Below the pieces are notes generated by a model. It saw nothing but the letters and a program-made list of their open reading frames with translations. It did not search any database and was not told the origin of the DNA. Below, piece after piece: positions 7,301 through 54,900 of a stretch of DNA of 64,000 bases. Each line of letters starts with the position of its first letter. Position 1 is the first letter of the stretch. This DNA is from Tubiluchus corallicola. Taxonomy: Eukaryota > Animalia > Priapulida. A program made the translations under genes and the position numbers. The stretch lies in NCBI GenBank assembly GCA_030141605.1, contig JAQGDQ010000020.1:186001-250000 (forward strand), in the 5' to 3' direction.

Positions 7301-10300
7301 GGGTATGTAATGAAGTTAATGAACAATTAAAATTTTCTTGATCAGGATATGTAATTATACAAGAATTACTACAAAACTACGGATTGATAGTTTGATACTC
7401 TATTGTTTGAAACAAAGTGAATACATTTGTTCTGGAAATCAATACAGCTTATATGGCATCATCATCATCATCGTCATCATCATCATCATCATCATCATTA
7501 TCATCACCACCACCACCACTAAAACCATCACCACTACCACCATCACCACCTCCACCACTACCACCACCACCACCACCACAACCACCATCAGCAGAAGCAG
7601 TCATAATGCATTTTTGCATGGAAAGTTAAGCTTCAAACGTTCTTAGCAAGCAATTCGAAAAAAATATATATTTGAGCAAATATCCAGTAACAATAAAATA
7701 AGCATGTTAGACAGCAGTATTAACTAATATCTAAACATTTCAAACATGGATGATAATGTAAAAGTTCTGTTTCAGAAGGCAAAAAACAGACGACTAAAAC
7801 AATTAATCGTAATTAAGTAAATCATAAGAAAGCTAAAAACAGCTATCTTTCATGCTTATGTCATTTATTAAGATATACGGAATGTCAGGAAATGATAGCC
7901 CTGCTACATTAAAGCGGAAGCGCAAGTACAAAAAAAACACATTTTTTCATATTCTATTCATAATAATAATAATCATCATTCAATCCATTTTTAAAAATTC
8001 ATTCCACTTTTTATTATCAAAAATTAAAAATCAACCAAGTTATTGAAGAAGTGAATCTTGACACTACTCTCATTGAAAAACTAAAATGAATTGTACTCTT
8101 GCCTATTTATGGCCTTCAGAGATGCGAAGGGCAGCAGTACTATATATACTAAAAATATTAAAATAAGTTAATTTAATGCTCTTTGTCATGGTAATGTCAA
8201 TTGTTATCCTCTCCTTGGGGGCTAATTATTCCCTGACACCCTTACATTATTATGCAGAAAACTTACACTGATGATAAGGATTTTAAAGAACGGGTACTGC
8301 CTGCAGACCGACTTCGAGCTAGCCTAGAGATAGATTTCCACGACTGCTTGTGGGTATGATCCGCTGAAAGTGAATCGATGCTGACAGTGGCACGAAGAGA
8401 TTTGCGCTTCCATACAGAAATTGCAGACTTTCCAGAAGATGTCACAGATGCCTGACTACCACGTCTCAAAACTGAAAACAAATGAAAAATAGATGACATT
8501 TTTCGTCACTGTACACTGCTTTACAAAGTGCTTAGTAAGTGTTTTATAATATAAATGCCATACCTATGACTGAGGTTTTTTAGCAGTAGCTTATTTATTT
8601 TGGTATGTTTTAAGTATAAAAGCGGATATTGTTTTATAAATTCACATTCCAGACTTGGAAAATTTATAGGTACGTATTTGATAGAATATGTTTGACACTG
8701 TAAAGATCTGTAATATAACAAAAGTTACACATCTAGGAAATGATCTGAAATAACTGGAAAGGCAGCTCTCTAGTTTTTCAACTTTTTCTGGAAGCTTTCA
8801 TATTTTTTCACTTCTTTCAAAGGTAAGTTTGCTGCCAAGCCGCTCAATAATATTTTTACAGACCACAAATTAACAAGCTAAAAAAGTCAGCTGTTTGTAA
8901 GGTACATTAAAATCCCTGTTTTAAATTTATTTGTTTAAAATTACTAATATTTTGAGTTATTATGCTTCAAAAATGTGATTCAGCTTGACAACTGCTTTGT
9001 GTAACAAACAAACAGCAATAAAGAATGGATATATAGAAGAACAAATAAATAAGTTGTTGGACAAACAAAACAGCCTCCAAAATAAAAATTTTTTGCACTG
9101 AATAATTTTTCTGTTTCTTCTACAGTCTTGAGTATAATCCACTTGAAATAACAAATATTATCTACACTTAAGTGTTCTGATAAGTTAACTTAGGCAATGC
9201 CAACGCAAACAGGTATTGATTAATGAAACCACATTAGGGCTGGATTTCAAGTATTGCCCAGGCAACAGGTTCTGGAGCACGATCAATACCAGTTGCCATG
9301 GTAATCCATCAGAAAGAAGCACAATGTTGAATGAAGCCACAAGCCACAGGACATGCAATACAATTATCTGTATACATTATTATCATTTGTCCATTATGCT
9401 ACAATATGACTATTATTGTGGCCAAAAATTGTCTTAAAAACCCAATCTAAAGTTGATTTGGAAACTGTGATTTAAAGATATAAAAAGTTTTTATGAAATT
9501 TTGTATCTTTAAAGAATAAAATCCTTTGTACTGTATATAATTCAAAACATGTTTGTTTAGAATAGTAATTTTATCGTAGTACTGAATAACACTAGTAGTA
9601 CTAGTCTTTATAAACATCATTTATTTAAAAAGTAAATTCTACTAAAAAAATTTTTAGGCAATGAATCTCAGAGCAGCATAGCCTTAGGAATACGTATTAT
9701 TGAAGAATTTGAATTTTGTCTCTGAAGAACCACATACGCTTGTATTTCTATCCACCACTTTATACAAATAATAGGTTATAGTCAAATGGAGTCAAATTCT
9801 AGCTTGTTAGACCAATGTGGAATCAATACTAAAATTATGTCTAAAGATAATCTTGAAAAAGATTTTGTTTTACCAGTTACGTTTTCACCAGAAATTCATG
9901 TGTCTTCATTTTCAAATTTAATGCTCGTGTTGAACTGCATACATACGAGAGACTTGAGAACCAGGTACAGCTAATGTGTCGTGAGCTCCACTGATGCCAC
10001 CAGATATATTACTCCCTCTCCGGACAGTGCTGACAGAACCATTGCTATTGCTGTGCCCATCAGCTTCCTCTTTTACTGTTACCGTCCGTCCCGTCTCCAC
10101 ATTTTCAAAGGAAAAAATGGGATTATCTATTCCTCTAAAAATGATGAGAATAATGGACATAAATAAATACAGGAATGCTACATACTAGCATGAAATTAGA
10201 AAATATTAGAAAATTGCGATGAATGAGCACTGCATATATATTAGTTAAGTTTATTAAATAAATTGCAAAACTTTCTGTTACAATACCAGTGTTATAGAGT

Positions 10301-18600: not shown

Positions 18601-19161
18601 AAACTAAACAGTAAACTATTTTACCAACCTGAATTACTTCCAAGTTAAGGTGGCCTAACTCGGTACCATGACAACGGCATAAACTTCCTTTATATTTAGC
18701 CCACTAATGCTCATCTACATAACTTTGTGCAATGCTATAGTATACACCCTTCATGTGCCAACATAAATAAAAATTATAAAGACCACAAAAACTGCCTTAA
18801 CAGTTTTCGATGTGCTTAAGTTGAGGAAATGTTAATAATTTAGTTTTTTTACCTTCAGAATAACAATCACAGATAGTATATAACAATGAGTTACAAAGTT
18901 TAGAGAAGACATAAGAACTTTTATTTCACACATAACAAGATATGCAGATCGTAGTCAGTTGACAAGTAAATATTTAAATAATGTGGGGAAAGGGAACGAC
19001 CATACGGTCTTCTGCTCCCTTTCCCCTAGAAGGGCGCCGAAAACTACAGCGTTTTTATTTCAGTGATCGGTTAATGTTATCCCGGTTAGTTAGAAGTGTT
19101 AAACTACCTCAGCCTTAGTTCCTGGCCGATTTCTTCTCAAAACAACGATTGCATCCGACAT
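12674..19161 (-). CDS. MOB4: MOB kinase activator-like 4 (phocein), 222 aa, 7 exons
   Basis: Exons 19161-19108, 15992-15930, 15187-15044, 14509-14423, 14266-14187, 13907-13796, 12802-12674 give [39 protein letters not shown]...[24 protein letters not shown]...[65 protein letters not shown]...[14 protein letters not shown]...ESEA*, a close match to known phocein. Confidence 0.97.
18666..18820. repeat. Left arm of a diverged inverted repeat (partner 19571-19732)
   Basis: Shares colinear blocks TAAACTTCCTT, CCCACTAATGCTC, TACACCCTTCA-x-GTGCCA, TAAAGACCA and TCGATGTGCTTAAG with the reverse complement of 19571-19732. Confidence 0.85.
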
Positions 19162-19536: not shown

Positions 19537-19732
19537 AAAAATGCTGTAGTTTTCAGCATTTTTATATTTTCTTAAGCACATCGAGTTGAGGTGGATGGGT
19601 TTTTTCTGGTCTTTACAGTTTATATTTGTACTGGCACGTGAAGGGTGTACAGCAGTGCGCAAAGTCATGTAGTCGAGCATTAGTGGGTTAAACCTGAAGG
19701 AAGTTTATTAAAGTTAACATAACATGTCATGG
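19537..19732. repeat. Right arm of the inverted repeat upstream of MOB4
   Basis: 19571-19732 is the reverse complement of 18666-18820, and 19537-19558 is the reverse complement of about 19035-19056 (GAAAACTACAGC). Confidence 0.85.
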
Positions 19733-22342: not shown

Positions 22343-25300
22343 ATGGTAAGTCTAATATTTATTTACCCTCAATATTTATTAATTCATAAATTGAATTCCC
22401 TCGCATAGTTAAACAGTATCTAAAAGTTGAAGCTGTGAAAAAGTGTGATGATATGATAAAACTGAGATTTATGGAAAATAGTGTGGAAATTTTGGGAACA
22501 GGCAATAAATTATGTGATGGAGTGTGATGAAAAAACTGTGTATGAAATTACTGAATTGAAATTAAAGATGATCAAATTAAAGTGTAATTATAAAAATAAG
22601 TGTAAGGATGATTTAATCTGTCCACTGTGTGCGAAGGAGTGTGATACGAATGAATATCTGTTGAAATGTGAAGTAGCTAAAAAGTGTTTGGAAATCGTAA
22701 TGAACGAAGCAGATCTATGTTCAGTAAACACGGGCACACTAGTACTGCTAGTAGTAAGAGTCAATGCTTGGATCAGACAAGTGATAAAATTTAGAGAAAT
22801 CTTGGGGCTCAGTGTAGAGGTGTAAGATCAACAGCGTGACAGGATGCACTTTTCTTTTTGGCTTGCTCCTTTATGATGTGGATATACAGAGCTTGACAGA
22901 AATATCAGAATAGCCTCTGTGAATCGCCTCACAGATGTATCAGCTTAGTGTGGATGCAAGTCTCTGACTATTATGATGATAATATGCGTGTAATATTCAG
23001 TGGTAATTGTAAATTACGACATATTGTATTTTATTAAGATTCTGCTTCACGGCAGAATGTTCTTGTTAATATTGTTTTATTTGTTTTCGTAATAAGACCA
23101 ACAGAGCTTCTTCGTGGCATTTTGCTTCTGTAATTACTAGTGTCTCTCTCCACAAGTTTGCAAGGGCTAAACACTGTACTGATTGTATTCTTCGTCATAG
23201 TTTCCATCCATATCTGCTCCTGCAAAAAATTTTCTGCAACATATACAATCTTCCACAGAGTTTGATGCCTTCAACAGTTTTAATGCAGTAGATGACTCTG
23301 TTCTGTCAATTAACGAAGCACTTGAATAATTCTTTCATATGTTTGACAGTATTCTAAAGTATGAATGACCATTTAAGATACTATCAAGGAAGTAAGCAGA
23401 AATATTTAGGAAACCTTGGATAATGCCTAGGGTCCTTGACCGTAGGAGCGGTTATTATTCACCATACAACTTTCCATGCCCCTGCCCTACATTGTGAATT
23501 TAACTCGAAGTCCTAGGTGTTGAAAGGTTATCAAATGCCTGACTAGTTTCCAGTGTCCTTGACCTTGTCGTTTATCACTCCAGTTTTAAAGCACAAGAAA
23601 ACCTTTCACATCATAAAGCTTAAAAATTCGTCTCCAAATTTTATGCCACTTATGTACTACCTTTTCATATGCATGGCTTGCATCGGCCGTAACGCTGTAT
23701 AAGACATGTAAATTTAAACTCCCGCGATGGCCGTTAGGCACAGCCATTTTAATGGTAGGTCGTTTGAAACAAGTCTTGATAACATTGAGTAAAGTTTGAA
23801 AAAATAATCAGAGCATTAATAGCATACATGTTGCTAATTAAGTAAAATTTTAAATTACTGTATCTTGTCAATAAGATTAAAAATACGTTTTTGGTTAGTG
23901 AGTGTCGCACCCTGGAGGGTGTGTCAGTGACATTTTACCGACTGGCACAAGCATTTTAAATTATTAGTCTAGTTAGATAAGTCTTTCCAGCAGGTAAGTG
24001 AACTGCTAAGTAATATAGATTTGCACGGAAAGTTTTTTGGGTCACAATTTAACATTGCCCTTTCTTCCCTTGATTTACATGGCATAGTGACGTCATGGAA
24101 TGGCACCGTCGAAACAGTATTGCGGGAGATTTAAAATGCAAACAAACGAAAATTCCTTTCAACGCGAACACGATTGTATGTGCATAAAATTGTTGTAAAG
24201 CAATATCATTTTTCAAGGCGATTTTTCTGAAACCTACTTCAGGTGCCCCTTTTCTTGTCCTTTAAGCCCCTTTATTAATCTTAATTTCTACTAACCTTGT
24301 ATATTTAATGGTTTATTGTTTTATTTTGATGTATAAGTAGGTGCTGCATTTAAATATTTGATCTTTTTCAGAGTATACTTGCGTACAACGGCGGTGTGGT
24401 AATGGCCATGAAGGGGAAGGATTGTGTGGCTATTGCCTGTGATAGAAGATTTGGTATTCAGGGGCAAACAATTTCCATGGATTTTGACAAAGTTTTTGAG
24501 ATGAGTCCAAAATTATATGTTGGTTTGCCAGGTTTAGCAACAGATACACAGACAGTGTAAGTGTTGTGCTACCATCAAGTATAAAATAAAATGTGTGCAG
24601 ATTTACTATATTGTAATGATAAGCATTTAGCTTTGTGCTTAGACCTAATCGTAATGTTAAGAGCTAGTCGGCTGTCTTAGCGTACTCTGTGTAACTTCAC
24701 CTTCAAAACCGATGTTAATTAGTACCGTCCTGATTTGATTTTACGAATAACTTAAACAGTAAAAAAAGACATTATTTTGCCAGACATTGTGTAGATAGTT
24801 TGTTGTAAGCTGAAAGTTACAAGCTTATTTTCTCATTATTTTGTGCAAATTGTTTGATAATTAAATAAAAAAGTGTCTTAGTCTTGGTTTCGTACATTTA
24901 ATGCTTTGTTATGATAGGTTACAATTGGTACCTATTCAGGTTCTTTTTACTTTCAGTGCTCTAAGATTAAAGTTTAAAGTTAATCTGTATACTCTGCGGG
25001 AGAACAGGCCATTAAAGCCAAAAACCTTTATGAGCATTGTTTCAAATCTTCTGTATGAAAGAAGGTAAGGAGTTTATATCTTTTATGTTATTCACGTCCA
25101 TTGCATAGTTGTTAATACATGCACGCATGTAAAACCTTTACATATTGGAAAATAAATCATATACATACTAATATTAACAGATAGCCAACTACTATTGTAT
25201 TTTGCATTATTAAAACAGTGCTTTCTTTGCCTATTCCTAGTGACCACCTCCCCAGTTGTTCAGTAATAACTAATTCTTGATTTGGCTTTTGGAATACCTA

Positions 25301-26897
25301 TCGCTCTGTTTTCAATGCTGACATTTTTACAAAATTAGTCACATCTGCAAATTTAGAACTTTCAATTTCATTGAAATTAAATTAAGGCATGTGATCCGTA
25401 AATACAATGGATTTAATAAAATAATGCCCAAAGTGCCTTTGAGTCCATTATGGCATAATTTAGTCTGCCAAGTTTCCCACTATTTTTAGTTAACCATAAT
25501 TGTTAAAAGTTTTGTAGTTTAACTAGAGTGAATACGGGTATACTGAGTTTGAATTTGAACAGTTGGTTTTATTTTTATTTTGTTATATTATGGTAAGTCT
25601 CAAAAACGTTATGACTTTATTTGCAGTTAAGTACAAAATGTCATGCTTGATATTAATACTCAAAAGTATTATTGCTGTTGACTATATGAGAAACTTTCAT
25701 TAAGTAATTAAGACTTGGAAATGCCCGGATTATACATGTATTTTTTATCTTTAGGTTTGGCCCGTATTTTGTTGAACCAGTTATTGCTGGACTAGATCCA
25801 CAGACTAATGAACCATTTATATGTTCATTGGATCTTATTGGTTGTCCTATGGTCACTGATGATTTTGTCGTGAGTGGGACGGCTAGTGAGCAAATGTATG
25901 GAATGTGCGAATCTTTATGGGAACCTAACTTGGTAAGACACAACTTTTTCTTAGAAAACGTAGCCCAACTATTAAGATGCATGGCTCAGGTTTGACTTGT
26001 AGTATTATGGCTTATTTACTATTGTGAAAATCTGAAATGTTTCTTTTGTTAATATCTTGCAAATGATTTGACTTGTGAATCTATTGGCAGTAACACATCG
26101 TTATCTAGTTAGGTGAGAACAGTTTTCAGTACGGATATGTCCCTTTGTTTAAGCTTGTTTTTTTAATAGGGTCCAGATGAATTATTTGAATCTATATCAC
26201 AAGCTTTGCTAAATGCTGTTGATAGAGATGCCATTTCAGGTTGGGGTGCAAAAGTATGGATCATGTAAGTGCTTTAAATAATCTTTTCTGCTTTTGTGCT
26301 TTTAAGTATGCTTGTAGTTTTGCTGAAGGATCATTAATAATAAACCAAAGTGCTCATTATAAACAAACCCTGCAGCCTAAAACTAGATTTTTATTTTAAT
26401 GGACGTAAACTGTAAGCGTTTGCATATTTTTGACATGTACATAGTTATATAGTTATATTGTCTTCACTAACAGTACAAGTTTACAAGATTGTTAGTGTTA
26501 TTAATGTGTATTGAGAGTTTTCCAAGCTCAGTTATGCACGGTTTTGCGTGCTTCTCTTAAATTGTAGAAAATCAGAAGATTGTTGTACACTGCTCATAAG
26601 ATTTGTATTTCATTAAATCATGAGAGTTCTTCAATACAGTAAAGTTGTTGATATTACAATTTAAATAAGTATAAGTAAATTTTAATGTAGACAGTAGTAT
26701 GAGCCGCAAAGCAAAAGAGAAAGTGTAAGGGACACAGCACTCTATCTCGAGAGTTAGATTGTAATAGTGTCAATTAGATACTGACAAAGCATTATTTTAT
26801 CATTACGTTTTTTATCATGTTGTATTAAAGGTAATTGTTTTTTTGCAGTGAAAAAGACAAAGTGACAGTGCGGACTTTAAAAACTAGAATGGATTGA
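22343..26897 (+). CDS. PSMB3: Proteasome subunit beta type-3, 205 aa
   Basis: ATG-only first coding exon 22343-22345 (ACCATG|GTAAGT), then exons 24372-24556, 24957-25064, 25755-25932, 26170-26264, 26849-26897: [31 protein letters not shown]...GLATDTQTV...[15 protein letters not shown]...DLIGCPM...[12 protein letters not shown]...[12 protein letters not shown]...RTLKTRMD*. The ATG exon placement is inferred. Confidence 0.96.
22410..22985 (+). mobile_element. 5'-truncated LINE 3' end in PSMB3 intron 1
   Basis: Degenerate ORF ending with a CCHC-type knuckle ([17 protein letters not shown]) typical of non-LTR ORF2 C-termini, then a 3'UTR and a short TATTATGATGATAAT tail. Confidence 0.6.
23590..24261. 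mobile_element. Non-autonomous Kolobok-like DNA transposon (MITE), copy 1, full length 672 bp
   Basis: TTAA|AGCACAAGAAAA ... TTTTCTTGTCCT|TTAA: TTAA target duplication, AG..CT termini, 12-bp TIR with 1 mismatch. The interior is homologous to 30440-31079 and 35488-36085. Confidence 0.85.
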
Positions 26898-29250
26898 ATT
26901 TCTTTATAAAAATGTATGATACATATGTACATATAATCATTTATCATTGTGTCATATTTGCAAAAAAGATGGTACATTTTACACTTTCTTGTTTCTGGAT
27001 GTTGCAATTTGAAAATTTTTGTAGGTATAAATGAACACTGTTCTTTATGGTATGAAGCAGAACTATTCAACTGTTGTTTTATTTTTTTATGAGCATTATT
27101 ACTGCATTGTTCATTAAGAGTATTTCCATTGAGTAGACGAATGTTTAATTGTATTTTTAAAAAAATCTGTACTCATTTCAGAAGAAAGTGTATCTTAAAG
27201 TGGATGTTGTATGATGTCAAATAGGTGTAACTAAATTTCTTTCAATGTGTAAATTATTTGCATTCAGAAAAAAGTGCTTCTTGTGTTTTTTCCTACTGGT
27301 TTTGTAAAATCGCAGTGACTTCCAAATAATGTTTAATGATGTTATTATGTAAACAGTTGGGTAAAAGAGATTGAAACCTTGAAAATTGTTTGTAACTTTG
27401 AAACTTAGAAAACATTAATCTAGTTGTTATTCCATTTTGAAAGAGTGTATGAGGTGACAATAATTGTCAAACACAATTGAAAAACAGTTTTTGAATAAAC
27501 CGAACGTTAATGTATAATTCCTAGGTTTTACAGAATGGTTGGTGTTTGCAGAATTGAATTGTTTAACTAGTGATTAAGGTATTTGCACATGTGCAATTCT
27601 CGCAGAGGTTTTGAGAAAAACCATTGGATGAAACATTTTGCCTGTAGTTACAAGGTATACTAATAGTCGCTACTGGCTGAGAGTGTTCTCAACACAGTTT
27701 TGGCATTTAGTGATATGCTGCACTTAATTTAAGGCTTATTTAATTTAAGGTTGTGAAAAGACACAGTCCTAACACCTGATTAATTACTAAGGACAATAAT
27801 CAATGAGACACTGAACTGGCAGAGGTACAGGTCTGTATGTTTATGTAGGTACTTCCTACCAATATAAGTATATGCAGTATGCCACATGACTAAGCACATG
27901 ACACACTATGACCATTGAGCTATTCTCTTCAATCTGTAAGTTACACTCTGTTCAGAATCAATGACTTGCACTGTTCCATGATGATAGGGATGGAGATAGA
28001 GATCTTTATTTTTATTAATTTGTTGAATTTTCAAATATATGTTCTGAGATTTTAATAGTAGTCAGCTGGCATTGCTTTGGCACTGGTTTACTGTAAGAAT
28101 TTGTGCGACACTAGTTATTTACCCTTTAGAGCTTTAGTCATTATGTAGTTATTAAATTTGTCAAAGAAGGGAAAAGACAGAGTCAAAGAGAGAGAGAAGG
28201 GGGGAGAGAAGTAATTTGTGTGAGTGCGTGAATGGCTGAGTGATCTGATAAATAGGTACAAATGCCATTTAGTCAAAAACCTTTGTAGAGGGAAGTAAAC
28301 GGGCAAAAACTTTTGTTCCTCATATTTAGGGCTTCTGTTTAATACACTTTACAAATTACAGTATTAGGCATGAACACATGTAGTTCGTACAACATAACTT
28401 GCACTCTTGCAGTTACAGGTCTACAAGTCTATGTATTATAGTTTTTGCAATATCCATTCAATGCATTATATAAAGGTATACTTTTACCTGTGTAATCATC
28501 TAATATTAAAAATATAACGATTTCTATTCTTTTGCTGTGTGTGCATATCGTGTAAATATTATAATGAATGTAATAGTAATTATTCAACGTGATGTAGCCA
28601 TGCAACTGAGTGCATGTTGCCAAGCTTCATGTTACTATCAGAAGCATGCCAAATTAATTATACATTCAATTTTGTGTTTATCAGGAAAGTGGGGATTATC
28701 GTAAACACAAATATAAGTAGACTACAAGGTTACGTAAATTGCCAATAAAATGTGCATACTACAAAGAAAAGATAAGTTTAGGACAGTAGAGAACCAAATC
28801 TTCAGAGACTTCTGTAAGAACGAAAGAGGCATCTATATGTGTCACTTTAAAAGTCATTGTACAGACTATCAAGGCAGGTCACGGCAACCGAGTGTTATTT
28901 TTATGCAAAGCATGTCATAACAAGCTACACTTGGCCAGTTAAGAGGATTGAGTTAGAGAATTAAAAGATGAATACAATGCTGTTAACTAAATATGTAAAC
29001 AGACAGAGCGTAGAAAAATAGATGGTTGAACAAAATAGAATTCTTTGCTAATTTCTAGTGAGCAGGAATCTGTTAATGTTTGTAAAAAATAACTGTTATT
29101 GCGACATAATTGGAGAAGCTTGCAAAATTGCAGCATAGCTCATTTTTAAAGTGATTTGTTAAAATGTTTAGGACAGAAAACTAGATCGTTAGTTACAGAA
29201 ATTAAAACATAACGTTAGACAGTGGTTTCTTTGAAGCCATACATGTTGAT

Positions 29251-31556
29251 CTACAAGTTAAAGTAGGATTTGAGGAGTAAGTATTGATTTGAGGCTGGTG
29301 GTACAACACCTGGCATAGACAATAGTGTTGCATCACCGTAGAGTGTACATTCCTCACTTGTTGAATCTAGTCCTATCAGCGTACATCGGTCATCCCTCAT
29401 ACAATGATACATACATCTCACTTCTAAATATGTTGATTCAGTTCTAGAAAAAAGAAGAAGTATTCTAGGTTTCCTACGGTTAAATTTCGTTCAATACTGT
29501 AATTACCCGCATGCAAAATTTACACATGTAATAAGAATGAGTATGCGAAAATCTTTCGTACAAAGGTCGGAGTCATAAGACACAACAAGTGCAAGAGTAT
29601 ACAAGTCAAGATGATTCAAGTTTTTCTTTTTTTGAATATTTATGTGCGACTAACATTACTTTTCCCTATCTGGATTCTGTTTTAAAGTTCATCATCATCA
29701 TACGCCCGTCACATCTATTGTAGACATTGGGCAGGCACAATTATAAAATAAAAGAAATCTGCCTTCAGACAGGTAAACGCAGCAGTAATCCAACAAAAAA
29801 ACTACACACTGCTACGCCAGTGGCTTGTCAGCACCACTTCCATTTCCTTTAAAGTTGTTGCGGTTTTAACTATTTGTGTGTTAAACGACATTTAAAAGGA
29901 TGCCTAGGTACATGTATACCGATTTTATTAACCGTTTATTCTAAAAAGTCATTTTCTTTTTTAATGCACGACGATTAATGTAGCAAAACCAATGTCCACA
30001 ATTAACCCAGTGGAGTTTTTTCGGCAAAATTACCTTAGTTTTGCCCAGAAATCTTGCTTAGAAAACCATAGTAGCAAAACGGTAAAACCTAGGTTTGCGT
30101 TTTCTGGAGAGTAATCAGGATTTTGCTCAGACAAATCAGGTTTAATAGACGATTGTGCTTACTTCGTGGCTATAATGTCTACAGTTTTTCCATTCGTATC
30201 TGCGGCATTGCCTCTCGTCCATTCATGTTTTCCCTCGTTAATTACTTGTCCTGTGTCAAAATAATTAAGCACGTTTATGTACAGCTCAAAAAAGTCAGTT
30301 AGCATAAAAACAATGATAGAAATCATGGCCTCCAAGACTCCAAAAACAACTTTGCAGAACAAAAAATGCTTTCGGCCCCTGTCGATTCTGCAACATTGAA
30401 TATTCGTGGTCTATTTATTTTATCTAAACTCCCAATTAAAGTGCAAGAAAGCCCTCCACTTACATAAAGCTTAAAAATTCGTCTTGAAATTTTATACCAC
30501 TTACATACTGTCTTTTCATATGCATGGCTTGCATCGGCAGTAACGCTGTATAAAACTTGTAAATTCAAACACCCGCGATGACCGTTAGACGCAGCCAGTT
30601 TTTAATGGTAGGTCGTTTGAAACAAGTTTAGATAACATTGCGTGCAATTTGAAAAAATAATCAGAGCAATCGTAGCACACATGTTACTAACAAAGTAAAA
30701 TTTTAAATTACTGTATCTTCTCAATAAGATTAAAAAACGTTTTAGGGTGAGCCAGCGATATTTTTCCAATTGGCACGAAAATTTAAGTTATTATTTATAC
30801 TTACATAAGGCTTTCCAGCAGGTAAGCGAAATGCCAAGTAATATAGATTTGCATTGAAAGTTTTTTGGGACATAATTTAACATTGCCTTTTCTTCCCCTG
30901 ATTTACATTTGCATAAGCGACGTCGTGTAACGGTGACTTCAGAACAGTATTGCGGGAGATTCAAAATGAAAACAAACAAAAATTCCCTTTAACGCGAGTA
31001 CGATATATGCATGAAAATGCTGTAAAGTAATATAATTTTTTAAGGCAATTTTTCTGAAACCTACTTCTTTTCTTGTCCTGTATAAGTTAAAAACGTTTAT
31101 CGCACAACACAAAATTTTTGCTTCTTTGTAAAAAACATGGTTATGATGAAATATCCACATAGATTTTTGGCGTGTGATTGAATGCACAACTGAACACAAC
31201 ACAAAGACAAAAAGAGTGTGTAAATTCATATGCGGTTCCTGACCGTGTTTCTGTTGAACACTCTTTTGATAAGCCCTGATGAAATTATCGAAATATACCT
31301 GACGAAAAAATCGTAAAACAATTCTTGGACAACGTGTGTGTTTGTAAATACTTGTGTGTTGTTATTTCCTATTATTGTTACTAACTTTAATTACACATTA
31401 TAAGATATGGGAACAAAATAATCCATCCATCTACCTATCTCTCTATATCTATATCTATGTCTATATCTATATCTATATCTATATCTATATCTATATCTAT
31501 ATCTATATCTATATCTATATCTATATCTATATCTATCTATCTATCTATCTATCTAC

Positions 31557-31626
<70 letters not shown>

Positions 31627-32019
31627 CATCCATCCATCCATCCATCCATCCATCCATCTATCTATATGTATATATATATATACATATATGCAATCCGAAG
31701 CAAATATATATACGTAAAACAAAGGGGATTGCAATATATGTGTCTGTAAAAATGAATGAGGCTTACCTTTGACAAAGTGAATGATTTCACAGCAGCAAAT
31801 TATCACGCTCACCTGTAAAAATAATATTCAAGAAGACTGAATGACAAAATGCTGATACAGAACGAAACTATAGTCAGTCTTAGCTATATTATTAATTTAA
31901 TCATACGGATCTATTGACTGTAGGTAATCCATTGTGTCTAAAGATTTATCCCAACGAAGTATACAGGATTTACGGCATGAAGCGCCTTTTTTGTGTCAAC
32001 TTACTATGCCGATCTTCAT
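29251..32019 (-). CDS. Small secreted protein (113 aa) with a single PAN/apple-like Cys motif
   Basis: Exons 32019-32005 (ATGAAGATCGGCATA|GTAAGT), 31812-31767, 30250-30163, 29443-29251. All junctions are GT-AG with matching phases 0, 1, 2. Protein: [113 protein letters not shown]. Signal-peptide-like N-terminus and a C-x3-C-x5-C-x11-C-x-L motif. Confidence 0.8.
30440..31079. mobile_element. Kolobok-like MITE, copy 2 (in intron 2 of the PAN-like gene)
   Basis: TTAA|AGTGCAAGAAAG ... TTTTCTTGTCCT; colinear with copy 1. The right target duplication is degenerate. Confidence 0.85.
31421..31688. repeat. Compound microsatellite (ATCTAT)n(ATCT)n(ATCC)n(TA)n
   Basis: Directly visible; source of the YIYI/SISI ORFs. 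Confidence 0.97.
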
Positions 32020-33260
32020 TTTTATGCCGAAATCCCAACAAAATAATGTGACAAAGCTGCTAGTTTTCCTTGTGTGTAAGTTGATGAAGCCGCTCTGCGA
32101 TACCAGTTACAGTTGCGCATAACTTCCAAGAGAGTCGCCAGTTGATATATTTCTAGCTTAATGAATCCATACACCCGAGTCACACATTATTGGTTAACAC
32201 GAAAAGTTGTAATCTAGTGCTAGACTTGAATTTTAGTGTTGATATAGTCCAAAAACGTTTTACAAGTAAAAAAACAGTGGCGGCAAGGTTTCCAGCTTTC
32301 ATTTAAAATTTAAAATTAACCAGTGATGCAGTTGTTTTCTGCAGAAAATACCAAAGCTAAAATTGAGACATATCCCTAAGACATTAAGCTTTCAGATAAA
32401 TCTTAATAACCATAAAATTGTGTAACTTGCGTGCATGGCTAAATTAGAAATAGGGACTACATCGACCGGCGACTTTACTAGGAATTAGAAGGTCAAGTTT
32501 TTCCTGTGTTACTGGCAAATGGCTAAAGGCATCAAGATTTACAAGACGTTCTCAGTTGAGAAACTATTTCTGCCTTGTTTATCAAAAGCCCCGACTCGTT
32601 ATATTGACCTTTGGCTGCAATATTATACCTTGACTAAATAACGTGAGCTTATAATACGTCCCGTTTAGCGCGAACCAATTTAAATAGTAAAGTAAATAAC
32701 AATTCTCATCTCATTTCTGCAATTAATGCAAATAATGCTGGGTTCCAAAGATCATAAGAAATATACACAGATCTCTCAATAACCAAATTTCTGTATGAAC
32801 AACGAATGAAAAGAGTAATATTATTAATAAGTTAAACTGGATTGCTAAATGAGATAGCTGTTCGACGCGAGAAATTTCGTGAGAATATTTTTGTCGTTTA
32901 TATTGTGAGCAGCCTTCAAGGTAATTTTGCTTGCTTACATTTTCTTCTAAGATAGATATCTTGTAGAAGCCACTGTTCTTGTGAAATTTGAATCTGAATC
33001 AAAGTAAAAATTACAACGTAAATGTTTAATGTTTTTTCAAGTGTTTTGTAATAATGTGTGGCTTAATTACTTTCACCTTTATTAAGGCATTATAATAAAA
33101 TAAATTGTTATGTAAAGCGCAAGATCCAATGGCGAAAAATATAAATCTGATGGTGTTGCCAATCACGATTCATAAAAGAATTTTAAATAAACAAATATCT
33201 AAAAATATGCTAAATCGACAGTTACTGGCTTCTGTACAGAATTTTTAAAACACATGCGGA

Positions 33261-44463
<11,203 letters not shown>

Positions 44464-47058
44464 ACTGCAGGTTAAGCACTGCGGGTTGTATATATAACAC
44501 ATTGCGACATTTATTTGACATTTGTAATGATAAATTTTTGAACTAAAAAGTTCAAATTTTTGAAAAAAACTTTTTAAGGATTACATTAAGGCATACATGT
44601 GATGGAAATATTTACTATGTTTTATAACATTTTTTGCGAGTATAGCTAGACTAAAGTGCTTTAAAAAATTATAATTGTACCTCGCAATTTCCCGTCCACA
44701 CTGAGACGTAATAATTTTATTTTGACTACTAAAACTACACTCGTAGTTCACATGAAAAAATCTTCTCTGACTGTTTTTTCATTTCTTATGCATAGTCAAC
44801 TGCACATAACTTAGATGCTTAGGAGGCCAAAGAAATGGTCGAATTGAAAAATGAATCGAGTTTAAGCGAAACCACCCATGCAGGTGCCATGTTACTCTGT
44901 GGATGGTCTGTTCGCTTACAAAGGGCTTTATCTTTGTTATATACATATATATATCTTATATATATATATGTATACATATTTCTGTTATTGTAATGTATTT
45001 CTTTTTACTGTTTTATTTTATGTAATATTAACTGAATAATTTAAATCTTAATTAAAACTAAAATAAAATGAGATAAGGAATAAGGACAACTAATTTTCGT
45101 TGGAACAACACTGTTGTCATTTTTGTGCTTGTTATGAATAGTGTATTTGAGAGTTCTTTAATAATTTGATTGAAGATTTGTTTAATGAATTAACAATTAC
45201 ATTGTTTTATAAAAAGGTTTAATAAAGTGCTCATATAGTAATTATAATACCCATTATTTTTGTTTTTTTAAGTGTTACAGGAAGTAAGGAAATTAGCTGT
45301 GCAATTCTATGATTGTTTGGTTGTCATGATCGCAAGTAATTATGAATAATATAATCTAATTTCAAGGTTATTAGTTAATAACGAAATAAGCTCGCCAGTA
45401 TTTTAGTTTTTGAAACCAAATTGAGCATGGATGAGGAGATGGATGAGAAGAAAGTGAGCCCAGATTTGCACCAAGAATCTTTGGAATACAAGTTCAGTTC
45501 CATGGCACTTAACTGTACATGCCTATGTGATAATATTCAGTTCTAACAGTTAACTAACCAATTCAATATTTTCAAGTGTTAGCTTGCTCAAGCCAGAATA
45601 ATTATTAGCTAGGTTAGTTTAAAATTGTCTTCGCGCCATGAGTTTAATTAATTTTGGGGTAATTATTATTTATATTATGAATTTCAAAATTATTGCTTAA
45701 TAGCGGAATAAATTTTGGTTAAACGTAAAGAAAATATGAAGCAGTCGCTATGATTTCGGAGTCGCGGGTACGTTGTATCATAATTACGAGTATTCTTCAT
45801 AGAAAGTCCTTCGAGTCTAACTTCTGCTGGTCGAAAATATTAGCTTGTTCAGCAATCCACATTGAGCAATCCACATTGTTGCCTACTATACACATACACA
45901 CATACAATCATCCATACACCTGGAGATTGCTGCCTCTTGTTACTATCCTTCTCTCGCGGATATTACATTCTCTGCAGTTACGATGTATTAGGGAAGCCAA
46001 GTTGGTTTACGGGTTACGGGTCAAGGGTTACCGGTCGGTACAGAGGATTATATACGAGCTTTAATTTCGCATTAGAATTTAAAAGCTACCCATTACTTTT
46101 CTTGACGATGCCACTGTCTTAGTTTGTTTTTTCTATAAAATTGTGAGTTGAATAGTCACAAAAATGAAAAATCGCGAAAACTACCACCGTTAGGTAGAAC
46201 TTTTCGTAGTGTCATTATACAGTCGTTAGTGCACAGTTTTTTAAAAAGTTACCAAAATGTGGGTGCTGCACTATATCTTGTTTTATTCTGCTTTCTAGGC
46301 CTAATCGCCTTGCAGTGAACTAAACGTCCTCTGATCTTGGTTCCTACTTAGTAAAAAAATTAAATCCAGTGAAATTTTTTCAGAACTTTGCTATTATGTG
46401 CTTTTTTAGAACGTCTATAAAACTAAAATTTATAACTAATATTTCTTTATTTTTGTATAAAATTATTCTAAACGAGAAAAACAGTTTAATTTACCTAATT
46501 CGGGATGGGAGCATCTATACTTTCTCAGTTTGTTTTACGCCGGCTAGACATAGCAGCTATTTCAAAAACTTTGCTTTTATTTTTAGACTTTCACCTTTTC
46601 GCACTTTGAGTACAATGGGAAAAAAAATCTGTGGACTCTAGTTTAAGGAGGTTTTAGAGATAAATGTGTTTTTAAAGCCAATGTGTCGTGTAAAGTTTGA
46701 TGAAACACCTTCGCGCCGTCAAGAAAACGTAGCTTCAAATAAAAGGAACAATTAATAAAAACTATTTTGAGCTTTTTTGTTATTTGTGCATTAGTTCTGG
46801 CGTAGTGCTCTAATAATTACTTAGGTGTCATTTCGTGTTGACATAATTTGGTTTATTGAGGATTGAAAACTACACGTTTTTTGGGTAATATAATTAATTT
46901 TCTGGTTTCATAAAGAGACTTGTTTTGGCTTTCGGCAGTAGCCCTCTAATTTGAGGCTTCAGCATGCTATTATGTTAGACGGTTTACAAACAGTATATTC
47001 ACTATGAATACCGCCAGATGTCAGGAAGTTGTAGCACGTACCAGTCAATAGTCAATAT

Positions 47059-47986
47059 ATGGGTGACAACATTCGCGAAGTCGGTGAAATTCCAAGGAAC
47101 ACTAATGATTATTCAGCTAGTGGAAGCAGTATGCACGTACCTTTATACGAAGAAGTTCCAGATTCCGGCATTCAATTTGCGAGAATGCCGAAAAATGTAG
47201 AGAAAAGGAAGCCAATTGGACATGCTGTGAGTGTCAGTGAACTTGATGCTTTAAGAATACATTATAGAAATATATTTTATTGTTTGAATGAAATGATACT
47301 GAGTAACAAAATACGCACAAATTACTTTTTTCTTGGCACATCTTGATCATACTATTCATTATTCGCTTGTCGGATCTATGTTGTTTAATAGTTTATTAAA
47401 CTATTGTCTAGTGAATATATCAGACAAGAGTTTCTAGATTTGTTAGCTACTATTTATATTGCTCCCTCTGTTTTGTTCCACATTGCTGTTTAGGTTTTTA
47501 CCTATTACGTGCTGAAGTAGGCATATTAACGCGGTGAATTAGTTTAACAAGGTTTTTCTGTGTTCACTTTTATAAAGCACTAGTTGTAGTAACATATTGA
47601 ATATGATTTACTATTACTACGTTTATAAATTTCTTTTTGCTCTTGTATACGATATGCCATAGTTGATTAATTATTAACGTAAAGTGCATCAGGTATATCT
47701 CGATAATAAAACGAATTATTTTTGAGCTTTTGAGCTTGTTTAATTTTTGGCAAGTGAAGCTGCCTACTGCTGTTGCTTTTTCATTGCAATCTAATTAGGT
47801 ACTTCCTTATATACGTTTTATTTTCACCGCAATTCACCAATTTTGCATTTATAGGTGATGGGTGTAATTCTTGGAGTCATCTATCTGCAGCAGGAACTAA
47901 ACCAGGAAGCCGTGCAAAACATCATTTCTGTCTTGTTTATTTCAATTATAGTCATGTCTGTGAACAACGCTTACACAGTAGTAAAT
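47059..47986 (+). pseudogene. Collapsed White-family ABCG pseudogene retaining only exon 1 and exon 12 homologues
   Basis: 47059-47250 matches exon 1 of copies B/C (DYS..S.MHVPLYEEV..SGIQFA.M.KNV....PI....SVSELDA), but its donor reads TTAAGA instead of GTAAGT. 47855-47986 matches exon 12 ([21 protein letters not shown]...). No homologues of exons 2-11 or 13-19 were seen. Confidence 0.85.
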
Positions 47987-49194: not shown

Positions 49195-49402
49195 GTGGTG
49201 TTTACTAGACATCCGGAATGCGTATGCGTTATGCGGATGCAAAATAGATAAAATCGGTTTATATTGTTTTCAATGCACCCGTTTATCAAACTTACGTTAT
49301 GCGTTATTTTTTCCTGCAGCTATGTCCCATTGATATTTTATACGCAGGTATTCCGCATTTGGATAATGCATAACGCATTCCGGATGCTCTGTAAGCGACT
49401 CT
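49195..49402. mobile_element. Tourist/PIF-Harbinger-like MITE
   Basis: Perfect inverted core CATCCGGAATGCGT (49210-49223) / ACGCATTCCGGATG (49373-49386), extended by imperfect TIRs and flanked by TAA/TTA. Confidence 0.7.
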
Positions 49403-51935
49403 TTAGTCAGCTACTATAGTGGAATTTTTGAGTGAAGTGCAAAAGCATCGTATGCATGCCTTCGTGCTTTCCACCAACTTACGTAATTTTTTACAATACT
49501 CCCGCAGCGAGGTTTGTTTGGCGAGAGATATAAATGACTTAAATTTCTTTCGCAATTTTAAGCAACGCATTTTATGCGCCTATATTACGTCTTAATTAAG
49601 ATTTTTAGGTGTATATTAAAACACAATCTTATTCGAGAATTGGTTCTTCCTCTAAGCAAAAACTTCCATTTATTTAAGTCAACCAGGCAGTCTTTTAGTG
49701 TGTACAGCTATGCTTTCTCAATTTACGTTACAGTCACATATAATAGCCATTTAAAAGCTCCTGCAGTTTTGACCTTTAGACTTTCACCTTTTTTGCACCT
49801 TGAATGTTGTGCGGCATAAAAAACAGTGTTTGTTTGCTACTAGTTGATATTAAGTAAAATCGATGTGTGGTGTGAACTTTTGATGATACAGTTCTGTGCC
49901 TCACCAATAAGACGTAACAATTAATTGAAAACTATTCTGGGATTTTTTTATTAATTGTTTTGATTCTTATTTTAGTTGTTTAAGTTTAAAGAAATAGTTT
50001 CGCTTTTGTTAATCCATGTTAAAATTCATTGTGAAACGTGGCTTTTCACAATATACCATCGTTGTGTGAGCTTGAAGTACAATATTTTATGCCTCTGTAA
50101 GTGACACGTTTTGCCTTAAGCAAATGTTTGAATCATTATAAGTGAACGTCATTTAAAACGTTCTGCTAGAGCATGCTCAGTATGGATACCGGCAACAATG
50201 CTGCATGTGACAATGCTGCTAGTGATTATTCCATCAGTAGAAGTAATGTTCATGTACCGATGTACGAAGAGATTTCACATTCTGGCGTTCAGTTTGCTGG
50301 CATGTCGAAAAATGTGATGAGAAAGGAACCCATTAAAAAAGTATTGAGTGTTAGTGAACTTGATGCGGTAAGTTAGAAATTCCTTATATGTTAAGAGGCA
50401 CAGAGAGCTCGCCGATGCTCATAACGTTATGTGGCTATCTTTCAGCAATCGTAATAAACGTTTTAGCGTTTTACAAACAAAATGAAAATAATATTGAGCA
50501 ACCACTTTCTTTTTTCCATTTTGCTTGAATATTATCCATTCAGTACACTCCATTTTACAGTATAACATCGATCGGATTATATATAGTCAACCCAACAATA
50601 TTTATTATTAAATAAATACACAAAATTTATTGTAAACTCTGTTTGTTATCAATTTTCTTACGATTATGGGCATGAAATTATTATATTGCTTAGGTTAACA
50701 TAACTTGGGAGAATATAAACGTCTGGGCGACGCTGAAAGGTGGACGAAGTCGACATGATAGAGAAGCTGGACAATCTGACCCGGAAAAGCAAACAGAAAA
50801 AAGAGTTAAGAAGCATATTCTCCGAAATGGTATTAAAACAAAATTTAAAGACTATTTACTAGCACGACATTACATTAGTCTTTGTCACATTATTTTAATA
50901 ACTTGAGTTGGCCATTTCAATGTGCATCTAAGTTAAACAATCTGTTTATTTAAATTCCTCTAAAAGTAAATAATTTTGAGAAATATACGTTAAACTAACT
51001 AGCACAGAACGGGCTGCTTCTACAAAAGATTGAATTGTTTCTGATAGGTGTAGTCACTGGCCACCCGAATAAATTAAGATCGTGTAAGTAGAGCGCATAT
51101 AGAAACTGTAAATAATTTTTGTAATAACACGTTTTCTTCACTCTGCACCCAATTTTCGTATTTAGTTTAGCATAGCTTTGTGCTGCAGTAAAGTGATTCG
51201 AGTTCTCGCTTAGAGCTGAGGGCTTGCTTCTACTATAAGTTCCGTAGCACAAAGGATAAGGCAGCAGCACCTTCATGCTATACTCAGGAGACTGCACTGT
51301 TAATGCAGCTTGGTTTTACTTTATGCCATTTTAAATTTGAGAATGTTTTGGAAAATGCATTCCCGAGAGGTGTAGGCCTTTTATTTAGTTAATAATGAGA
51401 TTAAGTAATTCACGTTAGTCTGTTAGGAGTGCTCATCCCAACTGCATCTAGTAAATTGTTGTAAAAAGTTGTCCTGCTCGCTTGTTTATTCCAACGACAT
51501 TAATTTACAAGTTTCATTAATATGTTTTGTGAAAATTTGTTATTGCAGTTACTGGGTACGCAAAAGCCGGTACGCTGTTAGCAATTATGGGTGCCAGGTA
51601 TAAAAGCATAGTCATATTAAGAAAAATTATATTGTTGACAAAAATATTTATATTGTCAAATTGAAGGCAAAATAGATTCTATACACTCGGATCGATTTAA
51701 AAGAGTTTATTTAGCTGTAATTATTTTCCGAAATTATCATAGCCAAAATTCATGTTAAATCAGTTTTGCAATAATTATTACTTTACAAGCCGACTGGCTG
51801 ACAAGTAAGGATACGAACCAGAAGCAAGATTCATTTGTTGTTTGTTTGTTTTAGTGGTGCAGGCAAAAGTACACTTATGAACATTCTGACGCACAGGAAT
51901 ACTGAAATGTATACTGTTGAGGGTACAGTCAAAAT
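49362..51935 (+). repeat. Recent segmental duplication, copy 1 (partner about 61421 to window end)
   Basis: Upstream DNA, exons 1-4 and introns align nearly base for base with 61421-64000. Confidence 0.95.
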
Positions 51936-54900
51936 TAATGGACAGCCAATTGGTTTTGGTCCTGGCATGAGGTCCATTTCGGCATACGTTCAGCAGGAAG
52001 ATTTGTTCATTGGTACCCTAAAAGTAAAAGAACATTTGAGATTTCAGGTATTTTAATTGCACTGTCAAAAGCTTCACCACACAGAGTTTGTCTACATTTG
52101 AAACAGATTAAGGTTTTTAGTTCATTACACTTCTTTTTACAATTTAGCTTATATTACTGTCTTATATAGAGTACCAAAAGCATTTTTCAAACATTTCTTA
52201 AAAAATAAATAACAAAAATGATTAAAACAAAGTGTGGCAGTGTAGCTTGTACTAATCATTTTAGTGTACCTTGTACAACGCAAGTTATTTTTAAACAATG
52301 AAACAAACTATACCACTGCAAACAATTCAGTATCAACATAACAAAACAACAAATCAATACATTTCAGTAACACAACAACAATGCAGTGCAATACAATACA
52401 GCAATACAAAAATGTCAGGCGATACAGTATAGCGTTCAGGACAACAATGTATGCTAAACACTAGATCACTGGTCTTATGCTGTGCTGCTGTGCAAAATTG
52501 TACATCTAAAATATCTGCTGTTTTGAGTTGTAGGCTCTATTGAGGATGGACAAAGAATTCACGTATTCTCAGCGAATGAAGAAAGTCGAAGAAACTCTCA
52601 CGGAGGTAATTTGCTACACCTGTATTCGTTTTTAGGATTTTAAAATAATTTATACTAAATTTTTTCGAGCCATAATTAAATTACTCAATTCTGCCGATGA
52701 TAAAAGAGGAAAAAATAGTCAAAGAAAAAGCATAAAAAATTTTCAGAAGAATGAAAGACTTAAAAAGGAATGAAGGGAAAAGGGGGCATCGAAAAAATTA
52801 TGAAAAGAATAGAAAGAAGGAAGCAAAATCATGTGAAATAATTATTTGCCATTACAGCTTGGTTTAAAGAAATGCGAGAACACATGGATAGGCGTCCCTG
52901 GTAGAATAAAAGGTATTTCAGGAGGCGAAAGAAAGCGTCTTGCATTTGCATCTGAGGTTAGTAAGTTATACTTTGATAATGAAGAAGCATTGACTCGTTT
53001 GTATTTATTAAAATATTGCTGGCACCTTTTGTGTCTGTGCTATTACTGAAGGTTAATAATGACATGGTAGCTACTATATGTAGAATAGTTTGAAAATTTT
53101 ACCTACCCATCATTGTCATAACAATTTTTATTAAAAGACTGTTAAAATCAGTCTTACATTGTTTGAAAATAAGTTTGCTCTAACTATACCTGCAATGTTA
53201 TGGGTCTTGAATTAGCATCATAGCATTTACAAATGATCTGTAAAGAGAAAAAACATTTGTCATAATTATTTCAGCAACTATAATGAAATAAATGCCTTTT
53301 TCTAGATGCTAACAAATCCAAAATTAATGTTTTGCGATGAACCAACATCTGGTTTGGACTCCTTTATGGCACAAAACATCATATCTGTTTTGAAAGACAT
53401 GGCTTGTAAAGGGCGAACTATCCTGTGCACCATACATCAACCTTCATCTGAAGTGTATGCCATGTTCGACAGGTAAAAGTGCCGTGTATACATTTTCTAC
53501 ATGCAAAAATGTAGACTTCATGCTTCACTATCTAAATACATATATATTTTATAAACCATTTTAACAGTAATAGTGACTACGTAGTTACTTTTGGCTTCCA
53601 ATTTTTATTGCTGAGTCATTTTAAATTTAAAATATGTTTTTACCTGAAAACATTAAAAATTTGTATTTAGTTATTTAAATTTTAAACTTTTAACTTTTAA
53701 ATCTCGTATGACTTTTATGCTTTCTAAGACATATTTAACGTATTCCCTAATTTCTAGTTCTGAATGACGGTTGATAGCATTTTTAAACGCCTATGTATTT
53801 CCATTTACTTATGCTTTTTCCTGAGTATTTTTTTGTAATTTTAGGATACAGTTTTTTGCTGGTTTTAGACTTTGTTTTACTCGCTTAAAATTCCAAATTT
53901 GCCTTCTGCTAACTTACTTGGACCATAGAAACAACTGCTTGACAATGTTTTTTATGTAGGCCTATATATGTAAAAATAAATTACTATTCTCTAAATTGTA
54001 ATGCAGGATATTGTTAATGGCAGAAGGCAGGGTGGCATATTTAGGTTCAAGAAAAACTATTCATACATTTTTCAAGACGATGGATTACAAATGTCCACCA
54101 AAGTTTAATCCTGCTGATTACTATGTGCACAGTTTAGCTGTAATCCCAGAAAAGGAGGCCCAATGCAAAGACAAAGTAGAGGTACGTACGCAGCTGCAGC
54201 ATTACCTGTAGTAAAGATTTTATAATTATTTGAGCTTATAACTTCAATTGAATTTTGTTAAAACATTTTTTATTAATAATTTGTTGGGTGAATAACGGCT
54301 TTCATTAATTGTAATTTTCATTAATTAAAACTGTCTTTTCGTTTTTCTTACTTTCCAACTTGTTACTTTCAGAGAATATGTAACGCATTTGAAGTTTCCC
54401 CTCAAGGTTATCTTGTCAAACAAGTTATCATGGAGGATAATCGAAATGAACAGCTCATTGACGTAAGAAAGCAGCTGATATTAATTGGCATTGCATCTTT
54501 TAATATGTTGTTCAGTTTAGTAGCATTTATTAACAATCACTAATGTTGGATCTGTTAATATGTTATTCAGTATAGTAAGCCTCCGTTCGTGCATCTGTCC
54601 CTTTGGCTGTCCATGCTTCCGCCCGCCCGTTTGTCTGTAATTTCGTTATTGGTCTTGTGAACACTTTTCAAGCTAACCTTTTTTCAAACATGACATTCAT
54701 TTTTCATATAATATATAGGCTCATCTGTCAGTAGAGAAACGGCCCTATCGACTTTGTGCGCCCCTTATCAAAGGTCAAGGTCTCAGTTGGAAAAGTTTGT
54801 GAACACATAGCCTAAACTTTCATATTTTACGTATTCATCGACTGTCAACAGGGGAAGAATCTTATGGGTTTTGAGGCCTTAAGATCAAAAGTCAGTGTCA

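What the first reader, a model, noticed from the sequence alone, without database searches (positions are those of the whole stretch)
29251..32019. Hidden 4-exon gene for a small secreted single PAN/apple-like protein
Seen: four short exons (15, 46, 88, 193 nt) with strong donors (GTAAGT, GTAAGC, GTAAGC), pyrimidine-rich acceptors and matching phases join into 113 aa with a hydrophobic leader ending VKG and the motif [13 protein letters not shown]11-CTLY. The ORF track shows only fragments of it. Known: C-x3-C-x5-C-xn-C-x-L is the core of PAN/apple modules, which bind protein or carbohydrate. Inference: a lineage-specific, stand-alone secreted PAN mini-protein (lectin, ligand, mucus or matrix component) that automated annotation would probably miss.
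Basis: partly seen in the sequence, partly recalled or inferred. Interest (0 to 1): 0.78.

Follow-up and report, generated by a model that had tools for sequence, protein, structure and literature searches.

The report
Small secreted single-PAN-domain protein gene
Four short stretches of this animal's DNA join without a stop into a 113-residue protein that is predicted to be secreted and likely consists of one PAN binding domain, an ordinary kind of small sticky protein already known from leech saliva, with an unknown target.

Summary
Exon 2 carries the best acceptor of 333 and the best donor of 334 in the 6.4-kb gap between a proteasome beta-3 gene and a white-like transporter. A second DNA version adds two hydrophobic codons in frame to the leader, and its one listed exon change is silent. 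Exon 4 is PAN-like by language-model features (0.91) and one phmmer hit to a three-PAN protein; its Pfam score alone is sub-threshold and no better than 2 of 56 control frames. Exon 3 is the weak part: poor acceptor, two rival exons. Splicing, secretion and fold remain predictions. Best reading: an intact gene for a secreted 92-residue, four-cysteine PAN module that binds and masks an extracellular protein or glycan. It works like leech LAPP/saratin but is not of that six-cysteine family. The scan has noted hidden secreted PAN genes in other genomes (mussel, octopus). New member of a known kind; low interest.

The parts
32005..32019 (-). Exon 1, coding part (start codon plus 4 codons; n-region of predicted signal peptide); phase-0 donor GTAAGT
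   Evidence: best of 4 frame-compatible first exons (donor 5.9 bits, A at -3 of the ATG)
31767..31812 (-). Exon 2, hydrophobic core and end of predicted signal peptide; phase-1 donor falls inside the Gly codon at the predicted cleavage site
   Evidence: rank 1 of 333 acceptors, rank 1 of 334 donors in 26900-33260; in-frame two-codon insertion in run X1
30163..30250 (-). Exon 3, N-terminal third of the mature protein (likely first strand of the PAN domain); least certain exon
   Evidence: one silent difference in run X1 at 30231
29251..29443 (-). Exon 4, coding part with all four mature cysteines and the stop codon
29341..29415 (-). PAN core motif C-x3-C-x5-C-x11-C-x-L (Cys60, 64, 70, 82)
   Evidence: PAN_1 profile positions 26-58
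28005..29250 (-). Possible 3' untranslated region ending at two adjacent AATAAA signals (28016, 28010); inferred only
   Evidence: first canonical AATAAA after the stop; an ATTAAA lies earlier at 28343
30464..30545 (-). Rival 82-nt middle exon that keeps the frame; lies inside a repeat present three times in the window
30163..30337 (-). Rival longer form of exon 3 (upstream acceptor, same donor, frame open)
30436..31082 (.). Interspersed repeat in intron 2 (81-83% like 23586-24264 and 35490-36067)
31421..31665 (.). GATA-type microsatellite in intron 2
29689..29842 (.). High-copy repeat in intron 3
   Evidence: summed contig depth above 20,000 against about 10 beside it; many loose ends at both edges

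Best explanation
The four exons form one open 113-codon frame that is likely an intact gene, predicted to give a secreted 92-residue protein made of a single four-cysteine PAN/apple-type domain that likely binds one extracellular protein or glycan and so coats or masks it. Steps: (1) shown: open frame, GT-AG sites, four mature cysteines, no second hydrophobic segment, no N-glycosylation motif; (2) inferred: splicing as drawn; (3) inferred: residues 1-21 are cut off after VKG in the secretory pathway; (4) inferred from HGF: Cys60-Cys82 and Cys64-Cys70 close the hairpin; (5) inferred from the family: with no catalytic or anchoring part it acts as a soluble one-site binder, as leech LAPP does on collagen. 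It is acidic (pI 4.9; 12 acidic against 8 basic residues), so a protein or neutral glycan is a likelier partner than heparin-like polyanions (inference).
For: Open frame with matched phases 0/1/2. Exon 2 has the top-ranked acceptor and donor of the whole intergenic gap; skipping exon 3 breaks the frame, and only 4 bridging exons keep it. Signal-like start: Lys at 2, 9-residue hydropathy 1.9-2.9 over windows starting at residues 1-10, Val at -3 and Gly at -1 (the -3/-1 rule is recalled); the phase-1 intron sits at the predicted cleavage site. Run X1 (DNA contigs) shows a 6-base insertion in exon 2 that adds Leu-Phe in frame, and one listed exon substitution, which is silent. PAN identity of exon 4: ESM Atlas best hit PAN_1 cluster at 0.91 with 182 of 256 features shared and 10 of 10 best family hits in one clan; with PAN_1 clusters left out, 9 of the 10 best family hits still share a family or clan, the listed ones being KIAA0319_N, MANEC, PAN_3 and PAN_4 at under 0.9; phmmer over 1.84 billion proteins gave 1 hit, E 7.8e-7, a protein of three PAN repeats; PAN_1 E 0.0037 and PAN_3 E 0.018. 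Cys spacing 4/6/12 against 4/10/12 for HGF Cys70/74/84/96 (PMC9249922, passages). Null test 0 of 32. The gene is boxed in by a proteasome beta-3 gene ending at 26897 and a white-like gene starting at 33260, and donors after the PAN core score at most 3.5 bits; of those with a positive score none leads to more than 36 further residues, so it stands alone.
Against: Exon 3 acceptor is weak (2.2 bits) and a rival exon scores higher (12.6 against 10.1 bits summed). The Pfam score is under the curated cut-off (17.5 against 21.4 bits), and 2 of 56 control frames from the window hit some Pfam family at E 0.0042 or better. The phmmer E-value sums three repeats of the target; a profile of those repeats gives about 21 bits and does not reach into exon 3. 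Codon-bias scores do not separate the exons from stop-free intron stretches (18-25% of controls score as high). The leader has a Glu at position 14 and three Cys, and no trained signal-peptide predictor was available. The in-frame insertion is weak evidence (about 1 in 3 by chance; 1 of 3 non-coding indels in X1 is also a multiple of three), and X1 may be the window's own sample. Nothing here bears on the ligand.
Confidence: 0.6

Rival explanations
1. Same gene, different middle: exon 2 and exon 4 are joined through the 82-nt exon in the repeat (30545-30464) or the longer 175-nt form of exon 3.
Against: The 82-nt exon lies wholly in a repeat found three times in the window and has intron-like GC (0.34 against 0.42 for exon 3 and 0.40 for known coding DNA); the 175-nt form inserts a second hydrophobic stretch right after the leader.
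Confidence: 0.12
2. A silent relic: the exons remain from a PAN gene (perhaps a larger one) that is no longer expressed.
For: Weak exon 3 acceptor and no clear codon bias; two repeats and a microsatellite sit in the introns.
Against: No stop or frameshift in 342 nt; the listed differences in X1 keep the frame and the protein; start, leader, four Cys and stop are all in place.
Confidence: 0.12
3. A signalling ligand or antagonist in the manner of the HGF N-terminal domain rather than a passive binder.
For: Four-Cys core with first and last spacings equal to HGF's (PMC9249922, passages).
Against: No kringle or protease-like part; acidic rather than basic; the four-Cys core is common to the whole clan.
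Confidence: 0.07
4. A chance assembly of splice-like sites around a cysteine-rich stretch.
For: The loose motif appears 0.23 times per 64 kb by chance; sub-threshold Pfam hits are common in control frames.
Against: 0 of 32 simulated motifs had a matching signal chain; top-ranked sites around exon 2; two further PAN signals.
Confidence: 0.04
5. A LAPP/saratin-family anti-haemostatic or a scorpion-toxin-like cysteine peptide.
For: LAPP is a secreted PAN protein (PMC7191736, passages); three of four chance-level PDB hits (E 0.6-1.9) share a CxYHCxRD stretch with scorpion toxins.
Against: Saratins have six Cys (PMC10671345, passages), this has four; no LAPP or saratin chain among the 4 PDB hits at E up to 10; no C-x-C pair as in the cysteine-stabilised alpha/beta fold (feature recalled).
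Confidence: 0.04

Closest known systems
Leech antiplatelet protein (LAPP) and saratin (PMC7191736, PMC10671345, PMC3631404; passages read)
   Same: Small secreted proteins; LAPP has a PAN domain and acts by binding collagen. That they are essentially one domain of about 100-130 residues, and that saratin shares the fold, is recalled.
   Different: Six Cys against four here; no sequence match; LAPP-like genes form tandem arrays in Helobdella, whereas this motif occurs once in the window; collagen binding untested.
HGF N-terminal PAN (hairpin) domain (PMC9249922, passages read)
   Same: Four core Cys; spacings 4 and 12 at the ends are equal.
   Different: Middle spacing 6 against 10; stand-alone rather than followed by kringles; acidic.
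P0002, unnamed 179-aa protein of three PAN repeats (Logan contig)
   Same: C-x3-C-xn-C-x11-C-x-L-Y pattern, 35% identity over the core; Pro-rich stretch after the core.
   Different: Three tandem repeats, one residue more between Cys2 and Cys3, no leader seen; no name or organism.
Pfam PAN_1 (PF00024) and PAN_3 (PF08277)
   Same: Exon 4 aligns to PAN_1 positions 26-58.
   Different: Below both curated cut-offs with exon 4 alone; lacks the outer Cys pair of six-Cys apple domains.

Membership tests
PAN/apple clan | Four to six core cysteines, four strictly conserved (PMC9249922) | tested here: met
   Cys60, 64, 70, 82 in C-x3-C-x5-C-x11-C-x-L
PAN/apple clan | Profile score above Pfam's curated cut-off | tested here: inconclusive
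   Exon 4 alone: PAN_1 17.5 against 21.4 bits, PAN_3 15.3 against 21.1. The spliced protein, which would add profile positions 1-25, was not scanned.
PAN/apple clan | Sequence or feature likeness to established PAN proteins | tested here: met
   phmmer E 7.8e-7 to P0002, itself PAN_1 at 58 bits; ESM Atlas 0.91, 182 of 256 features, 10 of 10 family hits in one clan
PAN/apple clan | Alpha/beta PAN fold | tested here: inconclusive
   Two models of exon 4 only, mean pLDDT 54 and 45; too poor to test the fold
PAN/apple clan | Nested disulfides (outer Cys pair and inner Cys pair) | not testable with these tools
   Inferred from HGF
Six-cysteine apple domain (factor XI / prekallikrein type) | Third disulfide joining the domain's ends | tested here: not met
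   Only four Cys after residue 21
LAPP/saratin | Six cysteines (PMC10671345) | tested here: not met
   Four mature Cys
LAPP/saratin | Sequence similarity to solved members (saratin 2K13 is named in PMC10671345) | tested here: not met
   No such chain among 4 PDB hits at E up to 10, exon 4 as query
LAPP/saratin | Collagen binding | not testable with these tools
   Needs a binding assay
Classically secreted protein | N-terminal signal peptide with basic n-region, hydrophobic core and small residues at -3/-1; no further membrane segment | tested here: met
   Hydropathy and residue pattern only; no trained predictor; Glu14 is a blemish; the X1 version has a longer core
Expressed spliced gene | Reads across the three junctions | tested here: inconclusive
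   See Tried and rejected

The most novel reading that the evidence does not exclude
A free, PAN-only diffusible ligand: a one-domain counterpart of the HGF N-terminal hairpin that signals through or blocks a cell-surface receptor in an invertebrate, and shares a bidirectional promoter with the white-like transporter array whose start codon lies 1,241 bases from its own.
Probability: 0.05. Interest if true: 0.6.

Novelty: new member of a known kind. Interest (0 to 1): 0.22.

Why it matters
Modestly. It adds an apparently uncatalogued small secreted PAN protein (no close relative) and shows how a two-exon signal peptide plus a split domain hides such genes from ORF and Pfam scans. The domain is in more than 28,000 proteins (PMC9249922, abstract) and small secreted PAN proteins are known from leeches, so it opens no new biology unless its target proves unusual. 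As a 10-kDa two-disulfide binder it would be easy to express and screen.

Tried and rejected
No whole genome is held, so paralogues outside the window could not be sought. Expression: no RNA holder listed; run X1 behaves as DNA (covers introns, no GT-AG joints); run X2, a small RNA-like assembly, splices the neighbouring proteasome gene but has no contig on the four exons, which says nothing either way. The junction 31767/30250 was not inside either stretch laid. Homologue searches: word-based, near length 0 hits of 1 candidate, longer 0 of 13, two-row alignment only P0002 itself of 1811; metagenome scan with exon 4 none of 598 stretches; 80 proteasome beta-3 loci fetched as a synteny probe were at most 86% identical in protein and held no relative (best tblastn E 0.073, outside the Cys core). 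Folding exon 4 gave low-confidence models; VIA-align best Z 2.7 and Foldseek no match, uninformative. ESM Atlas on exon 3 alone gave no usable hit, and Pfam none for it. Codon-bias test inconclusive. SNP density exon against non-exon not decidable (1 listed in 342 exon bases; some differences unlisted). Scorpion-toxin PDB hits rejected as chance (E 0.6-1.9). Rfam 0 matches in the window. No earlier notes near this place or on look-alike sequence. The phrase 'single PAN domain' was in 0 papers; searches (listings only) showed no paper on such a family outside leeches; these phrase searches are narrow and do not show absence from print. No supplements were read.

Full report
Setting. The window is intron-rich DNA of about 33% GC with animal-type genes: an ion-channel gene on the minus strand at about 2.7-10 kb (Ion_trans hit; the label 'cyclic-nucleotide-gated' is my recall), a proteasome beta subunit gene on the plus strand ending at 26897 ('beta-3' is my recall of the sequence type), and an array of white-like ABC transporter genes from 33260. 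The candidate lies on the minus strand in the 6.4-kb gap between the last two, tail to tail with the proteasome gene and head to head with the transporter. No whole genome is held.

Observation. I trained splice matrices on 34 donors and 37 acceptors from the window's transporter and proteasome genes, whose exon chains translate openly (the terminal or unresolved donors were left out). Exon 2 has the best acceptor of 333 and best donor of 334 on the minus strand of 26900-33260. The exon 3 donor and exon 4 acceptor are typical, the exon 1 donor is below median and the exon 3 acceptor is weak. In 150 simulated windows a loose four-Cys motif arose 0.23 times per window; none of the 32 testable cases had an upstream splice chain with a signal-like start at the thresholds the real locus passes. 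So the arrangement exceeds chance, though 32 trials bound this only to roughly under 1 in 10 per motif.

The uncertain exon. Exon 2 ends in phase 1 and exon 4 needs phase 2, so a bridge is required. Four single exons keep the frame: 30545-30464, 30337-30163, 30250-30163 and 30545-30509. The first scores highest, but it and the fourth lie in a repeat found three times in the window, and the first has intron-like GC. The second adds a hydrophobic stretch right after the leader. I favour it, but the splice scores do not decide the matter, and the codon-bias test was inconclusive for all exons.

Natural variation. Run X1 is DNA-like and covers all four exons. It shows a six-base insertion in exon 2 that adds Leu-Phe to the hydrophobic core in frame, and one listed exon substitution, silent at a Gly codon. 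Three indels outside exons measure 4, 16 and 12 bases. This fits a working gene but is weak, and X1 may be the window's own sample.

Protein. Residues 1-21 look like a signal peptide by hydropathy and by Val at -3 and Gly at -1, with the phase-1 intron at the predicted cut (no trained predictor was on hand). The mature part is 92 aa, 10.3 kDa, pI 4.9, with four Cys, no N-glycosylation motif and no second hydrophobic segment. Donors after the core are weak (at most 3.5 bits) and those with positive scores lead to at most 36 more residues, so no further domain follows.

PAN identity, tested on exon 4 only. Pfam: PAN_1 E 0.0037 and PAN_3 E 0.018, both below cut-off; 2 of 56 control frames reached E 0.0042 or better against unrelated families, so this is weak alone. 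ESM Atlas: best hit a PAN_1 cluster at 0.91 with 182 shared features, ten of ten family hits in one clan; the tool notes that a third of shuffled proteins also get ten of ten. phmmer over 1.84 billion proteins: one hit, P0002, E 7.8e-7 summed over three repeats, a clear PAN_1 protein; a profile of its repeats scores the core at about 21 bits and does not extend into exon 3. The Cys spacing 4/6/12 compares with 4/10/12 in HGF (PMC9249922, passages). Together these make PAN likely (about 0.85). The fold could not be tested: models of exon 4 had pLDDT 54 and 45.

Mechanism. [quoted passage not shown] A lone secreted copy has no catalytic or anchoring part, so it most likely binds one extracellular partner and masks or coats it, as LAPP does with collagen (PMC7191736 and PMC3631404, passages). 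The acidic make-up argues mildly against heparin-type ligands. PAN_1 was also listed among domains of phosphate-mineral matrix proteomes in lophotrochozoans (PMC13425148, passage), so a matrix role is possible. The partner is unknown, and all of this is inference.

Works like versus member of. It likely works like LAPP/saratin, but fails their six-Cys pattern (PMC10671345, passages) and shows no sequence match, so it is not filed there. It meets the clan's four-Cys core and likeness tests; the profile cut-off and fold tests are inconclusive. It lacks the third disulfide of classical apple domains.

Novelty. No close relative was found, but all database searches used exon 4 of a fast-evolving domain. 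Earlier notes of this scan describe hidden secreted PAN genes with other partner domains in mussel, octopus and other animals (unchecked). Verdict: probably a real, ordinary gene; new member of a known kind; interest 0.22.

Noticed in passing
window 33260-44480, 47035-47970, 50219-59860, 62284-64000: Tandem array of white-like ABCG transporter genes: two near-complete copies with matching exon structure, fragments of another between them, and the start of a further copy; 61423-64000 is 95% identical to 49360-51934 over 2,580 bases, a recent duplication.
   Followed up: partly
window about 59114 (+): The second white-like copy seems to have a GC donor (GCAAGT) where the first has GT at 43785; read from the alignment, and a GT guess 4 bases on broke the frame.
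   Followed up: partly
window 24372-26897 (+): Proteasome beta subunit gene; run X2 joins three of its introns, with contig pieces 91-98% identical to the window, so X2 is likely a related population or species.
   Followed up: partly
window 29689-29842: About 150-base element with summed contig depth above 20,000 in run X1 against about 10 nearby; likely a very abundant short repeat; no Rfam match.
   Followed up: no
window 23586-24264, 30436-31082, 35490-36090: About 650-base interspersed repeat, three copies at 81-83% identity.
   Followed up: no
window 18679-18820 and 19571-19708: Inverted pair of about 140 bases at 75% identity, 750 bases apart; could be the ends of a decayed DNA transposon.
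   Followed up: no
window 22466-22825 (+): 119-aa open frame with a Cys-x2-Cys and further Cys, recalling the tail of a non-LTR retroelement protein (recalled); no Pfam hit.
   Followed up: no
window about 2750-10184 (-): Exons of an ion-channel gene (Ion_trans E 3.6e-5 for 6086-6334), by recall of cyclic-nucleotide-gated type.
   Followed up: no
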